Positions 2,428 through 35,925 of a DNA stretch of 64,000 nucleotides are shown piece after piece; the first letter of the stretch is position 1, and the number at the start of each line of letters is the position of its first letter. The position numbers and the translations under genes are program-made. The notes under the pieces are model-generated. The model ran no database searches. It saw only the letters and a program-made list of their open reading frames with translations, and had not been told where the DNA came from. Where the stretch lies: the NCBI RefSeq assembly GCF_054482525.1, contig NZ_CM137006.1. One strand, 5' to 3'.

Positions 2428-3968
2428 AAATACGTTCGCAAGTCGGCATGGTGCTTAACCTCGATAAATGTATCGGCTGCCATACCTGTTCGGTGACCTG
2501 TAAAAACGTCTGGACCGGACGCGAAGGCATGGAGTACGCATGGTTTAACAACGTCGAAACCAAACCGGGCATTGGTTATCCGAAAAACTGGGAAGATCAG
2601 GAAGAGTGGCAAGGCGGCTGGGTGCGTGATGTGAATGGCAAGATCCGCCCGCGTCTGGGCAGCAAGATGGGCGTAATAACCAAAATCTTCGCCAACCCGG
2701 TGGTGCCGCAGATTGATGATTACTACGAACCTTTCACCTTCGACTACGAACATTTGCATAGCGCACCGGAAGGCAAACATATCCCTACTGCTCGCCCGCG
2801 TTCACTGATTGACGGCAAACGGATGGACAAAGTGATCTGGGGGCCAAACTGGGAAGAATTGTTGGGCGGCGAATTCGAAAAACGCGCCCGTGACCGCAAC
2901 TTCGAGGCCATGCAAAAGGAGATGTACGGGCAGTTTGAAAACACCTTCATGATGTACCTGCCGCGCCTGTGCGAACACTGCCTCAATCCCAGTTGCGTGG
3001 CAACCTGCCCAAGCGGCGCTATCTACAAACGCGAAGAAGACGGCATTGTGCTGATCGATCAGGATAAATGCCGTGGCTGGCGTTTGTGCATTAGCGGTTG
3101 TCCGTACAAAAAAATCTACTTCAACTGGAAAAGCGGCAAGTCAGAAAAATGTATCTTCTGTTACCCACGAATTGAGTCAGGCCAACCCACCGTGTGCTCA
3201 GAAACCTGCGTGGGTCGCATCCGGTATCTGGGCGTGCTGCTTTACGACGCCGACCGCATCGAGGAAGCGGCGAGCACCGAGCGCGAAGTTGACCTCTATG
3301 AACGCCAGTGCGAAGTGTTCCTCGATCCGCTCGATCCCTCAGTGATCGAAGAAGCCCTGAAACAAGGTATTCCACAAAACGTGATTGAAGCTGCTCAGCG
3401 TTCGCCAGTCTACAAAATGGCGATGGACTGGAAACTGGCGTTACCGCTGCACCCTGAATACCGCACCCTGCCGATGGTCTGGTACGTTCCTCCGCTGTCA
3501 CCGATTCAGTCTTACGCTGATGCGGGCGGCTTGCCGAAAAGCGAAGGCGTGCTGCCCGCCATCGAAAGCCTGCGTATTCCGGTGCAATATCTCGCCAATA
3601 TGTTGAGTGCCGGCGATACCGGTCCGGTACTGCGGGCGCTGAAACGGATGATGGCGATGCGCCACTATATGCGTTCACAAACCGTGGAAGGCGTTACCGA
3701 TACCCGCGCCATTGACGAAGTAGGCCTGAGCGTCGCCCAGGTCGAAGAGATGTATCGCTACTTCGCCATTGCCAACTATGAAGACCGTTTTGTCATTCCA
3801 ACCAGTCATCGGGAAATGGCGGGCGATGCCTTCGCAGAACGCAATGGCTGCGGTTTTACCTTTGGCGACGGTTGCCACGGCTCGGACAGCAAATTCAACC
3901 TGTTCAACAGTAGCCGTATCGATGCCATCAACATCACCGAAGTGCGCGACAAAGCGGAGGGCGAATAA
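2424..3968 (+). CDS. narY: Respiratory nitrate reductase 2 beta subunit (iron-sulfur)
   Basis: 514 aa; ATG overlaps the narZ stop (ATGA). Cys clusters typical of NarH-type Fe-S subunits are visible (CIGCHTCSVTC, CEHCLNPSCVATCP, CRGWRLCISGCP, CIFCYPR). Confidence 0.9.
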   Translation: MKIRSQVGMVLNLDKCIGCHTCSVTCKNVWTGREGMEYAWFNNVETKPGIGYPKNWEDQEEWQGGWVRDVNGKIRPRLGSKMGVITKIFANPVVPQIDDYYEPFTFDYEHLHSAPEGKHIPTARPRSLIDGKRMDKVIWGPNWEELLGGEFEKRARDRNFEAMQKEMYGQFENTFMMYLPRLCEHCLNPSCVATCPSGAIYKREEDGIVLIDQDKCRGWRLCISGCPYKKIYFNWKSGKSEKCIFCYPRIESGQPTVCSETCVGRIRYLGVLLYDADRIEEAASTEREVDLYERQCEVFLDPLDPSVIEEALKQGIPQNVIEAAQRSPVYKMAMDWKLALPLHPEYRTLPMVWYVPPLSPIQSYADAGGLPKSEGVLPAIESLRIPVQYLANMLSAGDTGPVLRALKRMMAMRHYMRSQTVEGVTDTRAIDEVGLSVAQVEEMYRYFAIANYEDRFVIPTSHREMAGDAFAERNGCGFTFGDGCHGSDSKFNLFNSSRIDAINITEVRDKAEGE

Positions 3969-4663
3969 TGCAGATCCTCAAAGTGATCGGCCTGTTGATG
4001 GAGTATCCGGACGAGCTGTTATGGGAATGTAAGGAGGATGCGCTGGCGTTGATCCGCCGCGACGCACCGATGCTTACGGATTTTACCCGCAACCTGCTTA
4101 ACGCGCCGCTGCTGGATAAACAGGCCGAATGGTGCGAAGTGTTTGACCGTGGACGTACCACATCGCTGCTGCTGTTCGAACATGTTCATGCCGAGTCCCG
4201 TGATCGCGGCCAGGCAATGGTGGACCTGCTGGCGGAGTATGAAAAGGTCGGCCTGCAGTTGGATTGTCGAGAACTGCCCGATTATCTACCGCTGTATCTG
4301 GAGTACTTAAGCGTACTGCCGGACGATCAGGCGAAAGAAGGCTTGCTCAACGTTGCGCCGATCCTCGCCCTGCTTGGCGGACGCTTAAAACAACGCGAGG
4401 CATCGTGGTACGCGTTATTTGACACCCTGTTGCAACTGGCAGGAAGTACACTTTCAAGTGACAGTGTCACAAAACAGGTGAACAGTGAGGAGCGCGATGA
4501 CACCCGCCAGGCACTGGATGCGGTGTGGGAAGAGGAACAGGTGAAGTTTATTGAAGATAACGCCACGGCGTGTGACAGCTCGCCGCTTAATCAATATCAG
4601 CGACGCTTTAGCCAGGATGTCGCGCCGCAGTATGTCGACATCAGTGCGGGAGGTGGGAAATGA
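3968..4663 (+). CDS. narW: Nitrate reductase 2 assembly chaperone (delta subunit)
   Basis: 231 aa; start overlaps narY stop; position and size match NarJ/NarW. Confidence 0.85.
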
Positions 4664-5419: not shown

Positions 5420-6313
5420 ATGAAACCGCAGGTGTACCACGTCGATGCTTTTACCTCACAACCGTTTCGCGGCAATTCTGCCGGTGTTGTTTTCCCCGCC
5501 GATAATCTCAGTGAAGCGCAAATGCAGCTTATCGCCCGCGAATTAGGTCATTCCGAAACTGCTTTTCTGCTGCACAGCGACGACAGCGATGTACGCATCC
5601 GCTACTTTACGCCAACGGTTGAAGTGCCGATTTGCGGTCACGCGACAGTAGCTGCGCACTATGTCCGTGCGAAGGTGCTAGGTTTAGGAAATTGCACGAT
5701 CTGGCAAACGTCACTGGCAGGAAAACATCGCGTGACTATCGAAAATCACAATGATGATTATCGTATTTCACTGGAACAAGGTCCGCCGGGCTTTGAGCCA
5801 CCGCTGGAAGGTGAAGCTCGCACGGCAATTATCAACGCGCTTCATCTCACTGAAGACGATATTCTGCCAGGCTTGCCAATTCAGGTGGCAACCACAGGAC
5901 ACTCAAAAGTGATGATCCCACTGAAACCAGAAGTGGATATCGACGCCCTTTCGCCTGATCTTGCTGCGCTGACCGCTATCAGCAAACAGATTGGCTGCAA
6001 TGGTTTCTTCCCGTTCCAGATCCGCCCAGGCAAAAACGAAACCGATGGTCGTATGTTCTCGCCTGCCATTGGTATTGTGGAAGATCCGGTGACTGGCAAT
6101 GCCAATGGCCCGATGGGTGCATGGTTGGTACATCACAACGTATTGCCCCACGATGGCAACGTGTTGCGTGTTAAAGGCCATCAGGGGCGCGCATTGGGGC
6201 GTGACGGCGTGATTGAAGTGACGGTGATAATTCGCAATAACCAACCGGAGAAAGTCACCATTTCTGGCACAGCGGTGATTTTGTTTCATGCCGAATGGGC
6301 AATTGAATTCTGA
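5420..6313 (+). CDS. yddE: PhzF-family isomerase-like protein
   Basis: 297 aa; sequence and position (between narV and nhoA) match YddE. Confidence 0.8.
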   Translation: MKPQVYHVDAFTSQPFRGNSAGVVFPADNLSEAQMQLIARELGHSETAFLLHSDDSDVRIRYFTPTVEVPICGHATVAAHYVRAKVLGLGNCTIWQTSLAGKHRVTIENHNDDYRISLEQGPPGFEPPLEGEARTAIINALHLTEDDILPGLPIQVATTGHSKVMIPLKPEVDIDALSPDLAALTAISKQIGCNGFFPFQIRPGKNETDGRMFSPAIGIVEDPVTGNANGPMGAWLVHHNVLPHDGNVLRVKGHQGRALGRDGVIEVTVIIRNNQPEKVTISGTAVILFHAEWAIEF

Positions 6314-6320
6314 AACCGTT

Positions 6321-6384
6321 GCCTGATGCGCTTCGCTTATCAGGTCTATGTATGCCGGATAAGGCGTTTACGCCGCATCCGGCA
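6321..6384. repeat. REP (repetitive extragenic palindromic) element between convergent yddE and nhoA
   Basis: gcctgatgcgcttcgcttatcaggtctat followed by tgccggataaggcgtttacgccgcatccggca: canonical REP consensus in two palindromic units. Confidence 0.55.
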
Positions 6385-6396
6385 ACCTGACATAAA

Positions 6397-7242
6397 TTAT
6401 TTTCCCGCCTCCGGGTGCGTATCAAACGCCGCCATCACCATCGCTAACTCATCCACAGTAAAGCCATGTTTCGCATCATCTACGCCCAGACCAAACTGTT
6501 CCTGCATCACGGTATATAACGACGCCACATCTGGTAGATTTCGCTGCTCCACCGCGTGCCCATTTTCATAATGGGTAAAATGAAAATTGGTCAGCGTTAG
6601 CTTGCCACCGTCCGGCAAATGGCGGTACATCAGCAAATGATGGCGAAAATGCGACTGCGGCCAGTGCGCAGACCAGAAATTGCCCATTACATAATCGCTT
6701 TGTTGCTGCTCGCAGAGATCAAAACGGTACATCGACTGCCAGTGCTGATGATGATTAAACTGCAACACCCAATCATCACCCTCCTGTAACAACCGATACT
6801 CTCCGTGTGGCGTGATCTGCACGAGATCGGGAACTAAACGAATCGGCGCGGTTAGCGTCTGTCCACCGAAACCGACATCAGCAATCCATTTTTCCCCTTC
6901 CAGTTCCACCAACAACAAACGATGGGTGCGCGGCGGTAATGCTGGCGGATTTGATAACACTACGCGCCCTAACAAGCTGCGAACGTTAAACCCCAGCTCG
7001 CGTAACACCCGCTCAAACACGCCATTCTGCTCAAAACAGTAACCGCCACGACGGGCTGTCACCAGTTTCTCTTCCAGCGATTGATCATCAAGCTGTATTT
7101 CCCTTGGCAGCAAAACGTCGAGGTTTTCAAATGGAATGGTGCAATTGTGTTTCAGGTGCAATGCACGCAGCGTATCAACATTGACCGCAGCAGCTCCCGA
7201 CCAGTTAATACGGGCAAAATAATGATTCAGAATGGGCGTCAT
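6397..7242 (-). CDS. nhoA: Arylamine N-acetyltransferase (N-hydroxyarylamine O-acetyltransferase)
   Basis: 281 aa; NAT-family sequence at the expected position. Confidence 0.85.
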   Translation of the reverse strand: MTPILNHYFARINWSGAAAVNVDTLRALHLKHNCTIPFENLDVLLPREIQLDDQSLEEKLVTARRGGYCFEQNGVFERVLRELGFNVRSLLGRVVLSNPPALPPRTHRLLLVELEGEKWIADVGFGGQTLTAPIRLVPDLVQITPHGEYRLLQEGDDWVLQFNHHQHWQSMYRFDLCEQQQSDYVMGNFWSAHWPQSHFRHHLLMYRHLPDGGKLTLTNFHFTHYENGHAVEQRNLPDVASLYTVMQEQFGLGVDDAKHGFTVDELAMVMAAFDTHPEAGK

Positions 7243-35834: not shown

Positions 35835-35925
35835 GTCGTTTGATGCCGGATGCGGCGTAACGCCTTACCCGGCAGGCAATATCATGCAGATTCAATAAGT
35901 TGTGAGTAACCAGAAAACTGGCGTT

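What the first reader, a model, noticed from the sequence alone, without database searches (positions are those of the whole stretch)
6321..6384. REP element between convergent yddE and nhoA
Two palindromic units matching the E. coli REP consensus; these can act as mRNA stabilizers, terminators or sites for REP-associated transposases.
Basis: partly seen in the sequence, partly recalled or inferred. Interest (0 to 1): 0.15.

Follow-up and report, generated by a model that had tools for sequence, protein, structure and literature searches.

The report
Decayed REP pair between yddE and nhoA
The 64 bases are a real but ordinary pair of E. coli REP repeats (one short "z1" unit and one "y" unit, back to back) between two converging genes, in a worn-down form that has lost its spacer and the four-base tag the REP transposase needs.

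Summary
Observation confirmed. The window is E. coli PCN033. yddE (5420-6313, +) and nhoA (6397-7242, -) converge on an 83-nt gap. In that gap, 6320-6349 is a z1-type REP in inverted orientation (28/30 to consensus) and 6350-6384 is a y-type REP (34/35). Chance expectation for each is 0.00 matches per window. Both fold far better than shuffles (z about -4.4), and the sequence recurs a median of 24 times per genome in 5,425 of 5,426 E. coli genomes.

The pair has BIME-1 composition (z1 + y, GTAG ends facing) but no linker. About 89% of E. coli carry 12 nt there. 102 genomes carry a 35-nt AT-rich, L-like linker with an IHF-like core. The window allele (about 10%) has zero.

Both GTAG tags are mutated (GTAT, ATAG), and E. 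coli TnpA_REP tolerates no GTAG change. PCN033 also lacks rayT at its canonical locus, so the transposase-site reading fails for this copy. No intrinsic terminator is present.

The hairpins lie 7 and 12 nt from the two stop codons. This fits 3'-end protection and translational damping, both inferred.

In 210 genomes the REP-specific IS1397 sits in the y loop.

Already known kind; low interest.

The parts
5420..6313 (+). yddE (PhzF-family isomerase) CDS; stop codon TGA at 6311-6313
   Evidence: ORF list; RefSeq annotation of the identical PCN033 record
6314..6319 (.). Non-repeat spacer between the yddE stop codon and the z1 unit. The RNA stem starts at 6321, 7 nt after the stop codon.
   Evidence: Sequence; fold
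6320..6349 (+). z1-type REP in iREP orientation on the + strand (the REP proper reads on the - strand). Stem 6321/6322-6344/6345, loop around 6331-6333. The tail is CTAT (6346-6349) instead of CTAC, so the - strand tag is ATAG instead of GTAG.
   Evidence: 28/30 to the consensus pattern, chance 0.00; folds; colinear alignment with the K-12 fliC-fliA and artJ-rlmC BIME-1 z1 units; z1 = 29-nt type per PMC8266576
6349..6350 (.). Junction where the inter-REP linker is missing. CTAT abuts GTAT directly. Relative to the common 12-nt-linker allele, the 12 bases CAACCGGGCTAA are deleted, which also removes the C of CTAC.
   Evidence: Alignment of orthologous loci; allele counts
6350..6384 (+). y-type REP in REP orientation on the + strand. 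The tag is GTAT (6350-6353) instead of GTAG. Stem 6353-6366 / 6371-6384 keeps the conserved AA/GC mismatch (6361-6362 vs 6375-6376). Loop TTTA at 6367-6370.
   Evidence: 34/35 to the consensus pattern, chance 0.00; inverted repeat I1; DNA fold -13.5 kcal/mol, z = -4.24; sub-threshold Rfam naRNA4 (REP325-derived) match, 39.9 bits, E = 2.3e-5
6368..6370 (.). IS1397 insertion point in related genomes. The break falls between 6369 and 6370 in the y-REP loop, and TT (6368-6369) is present on both sides of the IS.
   Evidence: FCI48 junctions; M7424; 210 genomes carry the junction
6385..6396 (.). Non-repeat spacer (12 nt) between the y unit and the nhoA stop codon
   Evidence: Sequence; fold
6397..7242 (-). 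nhoA (N-hydroxyarylamine O-acetyltransferase) CDS; stop codon TAA at 6399-6397
   Evidence: ORF list; RefSeq annotation

Best explanation
This is a chromosomal REP doublet of the E. coli REP/BIME family. A z1 unit and a y unit lie in inverse orientation with their GTAG ends facing each other, which is the composition of a BIME-1. The copy is reduced: it has no inter-REP linker, hence no L motif and no IHF-like core, and both GTAG tags carry a substitution.

At the DNA level it is most likely an immobile relic. It cannot be bound by E. coli TnpA_REP, and the strain has no rayT at the canonical locus. It is still recognised as a REP by the REP-specific insertion sequence IS1397.

At the RNA level, each of the two convergent transcripts ends in or runs through two stable hairpins. 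The most likely present-day effect is therefore passive and post-transcriptional. The hairpins would block 3'-to-5' exonucleases and so define and protect the 3' ends of the yddE and nhoA mRNAs. They might also give partial Rho-dependent attenuation of read-through into the opposing gene. Because they start 7 nt (yddE) and 12 nt (nhoA) after the stop codons, they might dampen translation termination of both genes, as reported for REPs within 15 nt of a stop codon.

Shown here: identity, type, architecture, allele series, loss of the GTAG tags, absence of rayT at its locus, IS1397 targeting, hairpin stability, and the distances to the stop codons. Inferred from the literature: all RNA-level effects.
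For: Identity and type: 34/35 and 28/30 to consensus, chance 0.00; colinear with K-12 BIME-1 paralogs. The type names were checked against PMC8266576 (z1 29 nt, z2 37 nt) and the K-12 REPtron sequence.

Dispersed family: (a median of 24 and 40 places per genome).

No linker and no IHF-like site in the window.

GTAG requirement: PMC3333891 (a GTAG mutant is refractory to cleavage) and PMC8266576 ('no mutations were tolerated').

rayT absent between yafL and flhA in PCN033, and no tblastn hit in the 129 kb of the strain held here. The locus is unique in E. coli according to PMC3333891.

IS1397 in the y loop in 210 genomes. IS1397's REP specificity: PMC1525189.

Hairpins on both strands.

REP roles in mRNA stability, Rho-dependent attenuation and translation when 15 nt or less from a stop codon: PMC3333891 introduction, PMC2817692, PMC12306157 summarising Liang et al. 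2015.
Against: No expression, 3'-end or half-life data for yddE or nhoA were available, so every RNA-level role is inferred.

The substitutions seen among alleles (for example K-12 unit 1 and EC958 unit 2) are transitions that keep a wobble pair on one RNA strand only, and they do not favour one strand consistently. They show no clear sign of selection on either hairpin.

rayT was excluded only at its canonical locus and in 129 kb of PCN033, not genome-wide.

iREP sequences can be cleaved in vitro when a functional REP is nearby. A residual DNA-level interaction is therefore not formally excluded.
Confidence: 0.85

Rival explanations
1. It is an active mobile REP doublet (REPIN/BIME) that serves as a substrate of the REP-associated tyrosine transposase.
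For: Two inverted REPs with a short spacer meet the structural definition of a REPIN/BIME (PMC3337134 abstract; PMC3333891). The outer arms 6318-6330 and 6374-6386 are 92% complementary. Other alleles at the locus keep GTAG and CTAC (AH20I049, EC958, E. albertii).
Against: In the window both tags are mutated (GTAT, ATAG), and TnpA_REP(Ec) tolerates no GTAG change. rayT is missing at the unique yafL-fhiA locus of PCN033. The element sits at the same site throughout E. coli and in E. albertii, so it is old and stationary.
Confidence: 0.03
2. It is a bidirectional intrinsic (Rho-independent) terminator shared by the two convergent genes.
For: It has stable G+C-rich hairpins on both strands between convergent genes. 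REPs have been described as terminators (PMC3333891 introduction).
Against: The terminator scan finds nothing in 6300-6400 on either strand. No T/U run follows either stem. On the + strand the nearest T run, ATTATTTT, starts about 12 nt after the y stem. On the - strand only TTT follows the z1 stem.
Confidence: 0.1
3. It is an IHF-binding BIME-1 (RIP/RIB element) that organises local DNA.
For: It has z1 + y composition and is a single, non-amplified doublet, as in BIME-1. An allele in 102 genomes carries a 35-nt AT-rich linker that is colinear with the L motifs of K-12 BIME-1 copies and contains ATTCAATAAATTA, one mismatch from WATCAANNNNTTR.
Against: The window allele has no linker at all and no IHF-like match even with one mismatch allowed. 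The same is true of the 12-nt allele carried by about 89% of E. coli.
Confidence: 0.03
4. It encodes a REP-derived small RNA of the naRNA4 type.
For: Rfam RF02564 naRNA4 matches 6353-6391 (+) at 39.9 bits, E = 2.3e-5, and 6320-6384 (-) at 26.7 bits. A sigma-70-like match on the - strand at 6425..6396 points into the pair.
Against: Both matches are far below the gathering score of 59.5 and cover 39-65 nt of a 77-position model. This is what any y REP would give, because naRNA4 is itself made of REPs. The promoter-like match is within chance expectation (1 found, 2.5 expected).
Confidence: 0.03
5. The palindromes are chance features of a G+C-rich intergenic region.
For: None beyond the short length of the units.
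Against: 0 of 100 shuffles give either full-length match. 0 of 200 shuffles fold as well. There are tens of copies per genome.
Confidence: 0.005

Closest known systems
E. coli REP / palindromic units (PU), types y and z1
   Same: The length (35 and 30 nt), the imperfect palindrome with an internal AA/GC irregularity, the extragenic position, the high copy number, and near-identity to consensus copies elsewhere in E. coli.
   Different: The conserved GTAG tetranucleotide is GTAT in the y unit and ATAG in the z1 unit.
BIME-1 (also called RIP/RIB): z1 and y separated by the long L linker that often carries an IHF site (PMC3333891)
   Same: z1 + y composition, inverse orientation with the GTAG/CTAC ends facing the linker, and a single copy per locus. 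One allele of this same locus (102 genomes) has a 35-nt L-like linker colinear with K-12 BIME-1 copies.
   Different: The window has a 0-nt linker, so it has no L motif and no IHF-like core.
BIME-2 and atypical BIMEs
   Same: They are inverted REP pairs with short linkers. Atypical BIMEs are defined as mixed combinations of y, z1, z2 and linkers.
   Different: BIME-2 uses the 37-nt z2 unit and is tandemly amplified (for example 3' of K-12 rayT). Here the Z unit is the 29-30-nt z1 and there is a single doublet.
REPINs (Pseudomonas and others) mobilised by RAYTs
   Same: Two REPs in inverted orientation separated by a short spacer.
   Different: This copy lacks the recognition tag, and the strain lacks the RAYT at its canonical locus.
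REP targets of IS1397 (IS3 family)
   Same: IS1397 is found inserted in the loop of the y unit of this very allele in 210 genomes, as expected from its experimentally shown REP specificity (PMC1525189).
   Different: The window itself carries no IS.
naRNA4 / REP325 (Rfam RF02564)
   Same: Shares REP sequence and hairpin.
   Different: The score is below the family threshold, the locus is different, and there is no evidence of a discrete RNA.

Membership tests
E. coli REP (PU) family | Imperfect palindrome of 20-40 nt able to form a stem-loop | tested here: met
   Stems 6321-6345 and 6353-6384. DNA folds are -6.5 kcal/mol (z = -3.07) and -13.5 kcal/mol (z = -4.24). RNA folds.
E. coli REP (PU) family | Sequence match to the y / z1 / z2 consensus | tested here: met
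   y 34/35 and z1 28/30, with 0.00 matches expected by chance. Aligned to K-12 paralogs.
E. coli REP (PU) family | Conserved GTAG tetranucleotide 5' to the foot of the palindrome | tested here: not met
   GTAT at 6350-6353 (+ strand) and ATAG at 6349-6346 (- strand). Other alleles of the locus keep GTAG/CTAC, so this is decay of a member, not non-membership by descent.
E. coli REP (PU) family | Conserved mismatch or bulge (AA opposite GC) in the stem | tested here: met
   In the y unit, A6361 A6362 lie opposite G6375 C6376. The z1 unit has an AA bulge in the - strand fold.
E. coli REP (PU) family | Extragenic and present in many dispersed copies per genome | tested here: met
   The pair lies wholly within the 83-nt gap 6314-6396. 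There is a median of 24 places per genome for the 110-nt query.
BIME-1 (RIP/RIB) | One z1 and one y REP in inverse orientation, single copy | tested here: met
   No tandem repeats of the doublet.
BIME-1 (RIP/RIB) | Long, conserved L linker between the two REPs | tested here: not met
   The linker is 0 nt in the window, 12 nt in most E. coli, and 35 nt (L-like) in only 102 genomes.
BIME-1 (RIP/RIB) | IHF binding site in the linker | tested here: not met
   The window has no match to WATCAANNNNTTR with up to one mismatch, whereas the PEC1021 allele and the K-12 paralogs each have one. Actual IHF binding cannot be tested with these tools.
BIME-2 | z2 (37-nt) + y units, tandemly repeated, S and s/l/r linkers | tested here: not met
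   The Z unit is the 30-nt z1 type. Compare the K-12 REPtron z2 units. There is a single doublet.
RAYT/TnpA_REP substrate (REPIN-like mobile doublet) | Intact GTAG guide/recognition tag on a REP strand | tested here: not met
   with the requirement taken from PMC3333891 and PMC8266576.
RAYT/TnpA_REP substrate (REPIN-like mobile doublet) | Cognate rayT gene in the same genome | tested here: inconclusive
   rayT is absent from the canonical yafL-fhiA locus of PCN033, and tblastn of the 129 kb held finds nothing. The rest of the genome could not be searched.
Intrinsic terminator | G+C-rich hairpin immediately followed by a T run | tested here: not met
   No site within 6300-6400 on either strand.
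Translation-damping REPs (Liang, Rudd and Deutscher 2015, as summarised in PMC12306157) | REP hairpin 15 nt or less downstream of a stop codon | tested here: met
   7 nt after the yddE TGA and 12 nt after the nhoA TAA. The effect on translation itself was not tested.

The most novel reading that the evidence does not exclude
The yddE-nhoA doublet is a natural allelic series across more than 5,000 genomes: linkers of 35, 12 and 0 nt, a 12-nt linker flipped in place, GTAG present or absent, and IS1397 present or absent. It may record how BIME linkers are made and unmade.

On the local flank tree, the 12-nt state is shared by E. albertii, by a divergent Escherichia lineage (inverted there) and by most E. 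coli. The 35-nt L-like state occurs in one basal E. coli lineage and has no donor copy anywhere in E. coli.

The most novel reading is that the L/IHF core is a small insertable and excisable module, or that the linker is flipped and resized by template switching between the inverted REP arms, rather than being a fixed part of BIME-1.
Probability: 0.12. Interest if true: 0.35.

Novelty: already known. Interest (0 to 1): 0.1.

Why it matters
It matters little for discovery. REP/BIME elements have been known for about 40 years, and this locus is an ordinary instance; from memory, the K-12 copy is in the curated REP catalogues. The practical value is in annotation. The gap between yddE and nhoA should be labelled as a z1-y REP doublet. 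It should not be labelled an intrinsic terminator, an sRNA gene, an IHF-binding BIME-1 or an active RAYT site. As a side benefit, the locus offers a clean natural series of alleles (linker length, GTAG state, IS1397 insertion). That series could be used to test REP functions in otherwise near-isogenic contexts.

Tried and rejected
1. My recalled assignment of the short unit as 'Z2', and hence 'BIME-2', was wrong. PMC8266576 gives z1 = 29 nt and z2 = 37 nt. The K-12 REPtron, whose BIME is described as y REP + z2 iREP, carries the 37-nt unit. The unit here is z1.
2. I looked for curated REP features in the RefSeq K-12 record. None are shown even at a site (5,565-5,669) that I recall as annotated, so the absence is uninformative.
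3. The Rfam scan gave only a sub-threshold naRNA4 match, which reflects REP content.
4. The terminator and promoter scan found no terminator. One promoter-like match was within chance expectation.
5. A RAYT-mediated origin for the 12-nt deletion fails. Cutting at the two CT dinucleotides of the 12-nt allele would remove 11 nt, not the observed 12 (sequence reasoning).
6. Recent gene conversion as the source of the 35-nt linker is unlikely. The linker occurs once per genome in the 102 genomes that have it, and paralogs are only 82-86% identical over the whole element, so no donor was found.
7. Reading the variant positions for compensatory changes was uninformative. There were too few changes, and they are transitions that preserve wobble pairs on different strands.
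8. Liang et al. 2015 and the IS1397 primary papers could not be opened. Their content is cited only through open papers that summarise them.
Only E. albertii, one divergent Escherichia, five Citrobacter loci and one Salmonella locus had both genes adjacent.

Full report
**What is there**

The window is the chromosome of E. coli PCN033. A 901-nt query around the finding is 100% identical to NZ_CP006632.1. RefSeq annotates yddE (PhzF-family isomerase, window 5420-6313, +) and nhoA (N-hydroxyarylamine O-acetyltransferase, 6397-7242, -) there as convergent neighbours. The gap between them is 83 nt (6314-6396).

Within the gap:
- 6320-6349 reads TGCCTGATGCGCTTCGCTTATCAGGTCTAT.
- 6350-6384 reads GTATGCCGGATAAGGCGTTTACGCCGCATCCGGCA.

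**Is it more than chance?**

I took consensus patterns from two unrelated K-12 loci, fliC-fliA and artJ-rlmC. Against these, the second unit matches the y REP at 34 of 35 positions and the first matches the short Z-type REP at 28 of 30. In 100 dinucleotide-preserving shuffles of the window, neither pattern matched even with three mismatches allowed.

- The repeat finder reports the y palindrome (6353-6367 / 6370-6384) and complementarity between the outer halves of the two units (6318-6330 / 6374-6386, 92%).
- As RNA, the region folds to -34.5 kcal/mol (+ strand) and -35.3 kcal/mol (- strand), with z = -4.3 and -4.4 and no shuffle as good.
- As single-stranded DNA, z = -4.5 and -3.6.
- A 110-nt query across the gap finds a median of 24 places per genome in 5,425 of 5,426 complete E. 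coli genomes.

**Which kind of REP**

I first recalled the short unit as 'Z2'. This was wrong. Corneloup et al. 2021 give y = 35 nt, z1 = 29 nt and z2 = 37 nt (PMC8266576). The BIME next to K-12 rayT, which Ton-Hoang et al. describe as y REP + z2 iREP (PMC3333891), carries the 37-nt unit GCCTGATGCGACGCTGGCGCGTCTTATCATGCCTAC.

So the window holds a z1 unit in iREP orientation on the + strand, followed by a y unit in REP orientation, with their CTAC and GTAG ends facing each other. By the classification quoted in PMC3333891, z1 + y is the composition of BIME-1. A BIME-1 is a single doublet whose REPs are separated by a long, conserved L linker that often carries an IHF site. In the window there is no linker at all: CTAT abuts GTAT.

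**The allele series**

I aligned the orthologous gap from twelve E. coli genomes. Three linker lengths appear.

| Linker | Sequence and features | Frequency |
|---|---|---|
| 35 nt (PEC1021) | AGCCGCATCGTAATTTATTGAATATATTGGCTAAT. Colinear with the L motifs of the K-12 fliC-fliA and artJ-rlmC BIME-1 copies. Contains ATTCAATAAATTA, one mismatch from the IHF consensus WATCAANNNNTTR, as the paralogs do. | 102 of 5,426 genomes, once per genome |
| 12 nt (most E. coli, including K-12, O157:H7, BL21, EC958) | AACCGGGCTAAT | 4,848 of 5,471 matching records fall in the identity band expected for a 12-nt gap |
| 0 nt (window allele) | The bases CAACCGGGCTAA are lost, which also turns CTAC into CTAT. | 356 records at 99% identity or more, plus 210 genomes in which this allele is interrupted by IS1397 |

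On a neighbour-joining tree of the coding flanks, the 0-nt allele is nested inside 12-nt E. coli lineages. It is therefore derived.

The polarity of 35 nt versus 12 nt is unresolved.
- E. albertii has the 12-nt linker (AACCGGGCTACT) with intact CTAC and GTAG.
- A divergent Escherichia lineage labelled E. coli SCPM-O-B-8794 has it inverted (ATTAGCCCGGAT, 11 of 12 as reverse complement).
- PEC1021 is the most basal E. coli branch at this locus.
- Parsimony therefore favours gain of the 23-nt core.
- Against this, the linker edges are shared between the two alleles, and no donor copy exists in E. coli.

Citrobacter youngae and C. werkmanii carry only a single y REP, with GTAG, at the same site. 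Salmonella enterica subsp. diarizonae carries none.

**DNA-level activity**

E. coli TnpA_REP binds only the REP strand. It requires the 5' GTAG and the stem mismatch and then cleaves nearby CT sites. A GTAG mutant substrate is refractory to cleavage (PMC3333891). [quoted passage not shown]

In the window the y tag is GTAT and the z1 tag (- strand) is ATAG. The AA/GC mismatch is retained.

The tnpA_REP gene sits at a unique position between yafL and fhiA in E. coli and has been lost in some lineages (PMC3333891). In PCN033, yafL is followed after 161 nt by flhA. That gap begins with a truncated y REP (GTAGGACGG) and holds no rayT. tblastn with K-12 RayT finds nothing in the 129 kb of the strain that I hold.

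Both tests argue against this copy being a live transposase site, although the rest of the genome was not searched.

By contrast, the REP-specific IS1397 (experimental specificity summarised in PMC1525189) is inserted in the TTTA loop of the y unit, between window positions 6369 and 6370. Strains FCI48 and M7424 show this, and the junction is present in 210 genomes. A REP-recognising transposase has therefore treated this unit as a REP.

**RNA-level role (inferred)**

No intrinsic-terminator signature lies in the gap on either strand, and no T run follows either stem. The literature attributes several roles to REPs:
- protection of upstream mRNA against 3' exonucleases,
- Rho-dependent attenuation,
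- binding of gyrase, Pol I and IHF (PMC3333891 introduction; PMC2817692),
- ribosome stalling and reduced translation when the REP lies within 15 nt of the stop codon (Liang et al. 2015, as summarised in PMC12306157).

Here the first stem begins 7 nt after the yddE TGA. On the other strand, the y stem begins 12 nt after the nhoA TAA. Both convergent mRNAs thus meet two stable hairpins immediately after their stop codons.

I consider passive 3'-end protection, with possible translational damping of both genes, the most likely present effect. I have no expression data, and the few substitutions among alleles give no clear sign of selection on either hairpin.

**Rivals**

- Active RAYT substrate: contradicted by the tag and by the missing gene.
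- Intrinsic bidirectional terminator: no T tract.
- IHF-binding BIME-1: no linker in this allele.
- naRNA4-like sRNA gene: Rfam gives 39.9 bits against a threshold of 59.5, which reflects REP content only.
- Chance: excluded.

**Verdict**

It is a known kind of element at a site where it has sat since before E. coli and E. albertii diverged, here in its most eroded form. Novelty: already known. Interest: low. The allele series, the flipped linker and the recurrently recovered IS1397 insertion are tidy illustrations of REP/BIME dynamics rather than new biology.

Noticed in passing
L141 3689-3849 (PCN033 NZ_CP006632.1 288688-288848): PCN033 has no rayT/tnpA_REP between yafL and flhA. The 161-nt gap starts with a truncated y REP (GTAGGACGG). 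It is then filled by a G+C-rich palindromic repeat (CCCTCTCCCC...GGGGAGAGGG) that I recall as Box C-like. This differs from the two loss modes described in PMC3333891, which are precise excision and hicAB replacement.
   Followed up: partly
window 6369|6370; L016 1971-3418; L139 about 2571-4000: IS1397 is inserted in the loop of the y REP of this locus in 210 of 5,426 E. coli genomes. Where checked, the insertion is on the zero-linker allele.
   Followed up: yes
L057 4973-5059: In a divergent Escherichia lineage labelled E. coli SCPM-O-B-8794, the 12-nt inter-REP linker is present as its reverse complement (ATTAGCCCGGAT), while z1 and y keep their positions. This suggests an in-place flip between the 14-bp inverted REP feet.
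   Followed up: partly
L077 3687-3744, L106 3630-3688, L021 2911-2969, L135 754-789: Citrobacter youngae and C. werkmanii carry a single y REP with intact GTAG at the same yddE-nhoA gap. This REP is nearly identical to the E. coli unit, although the flanking proteins are only about 81-85% identical. Salmonella enterica subsp. diarizonae has a 38-nt gap without a REP.
   Followed up: partly
L014 451-485: 102 E. coli genomes carry a locus-specific 35-nt L-like linker with an IHF-like core. It occurs once per genome and has no close paralog. Whether it is ancestral or was gained is unresolved.
   Followed up: partly
L009, L012, L015: The flanking genes are decaying in some lineages. nhoA is frameshifted in O157:H7 strain 9234, yddE has an internal stop in BL21, and nhoA is truncated in AH20I049.
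   Followed up: no
window 35843-35878: Another, solitary y-like REP (TGCCGGATGCGGCGTAACGCCTTACCCGGCAGGC) lies elsewhere in the window.
   Followed up: no
window 6425-6396 (- strand): A sigma-70-like match (TTGATA, 18-nt spacer, AATAAT) inside the 3' end of nhoA points into the REP pair. It is within chance expectation (1 found, 2.5 expected).
   Followed up: no
L003 (NC_000913.3 5000-6500) and L002: The RefSeq K-12 record held by the tool shows no REP repeat_region features at all. The absence of a REP annotation at yddE-nhoA there therefore says nothing.
   Followed up: yes
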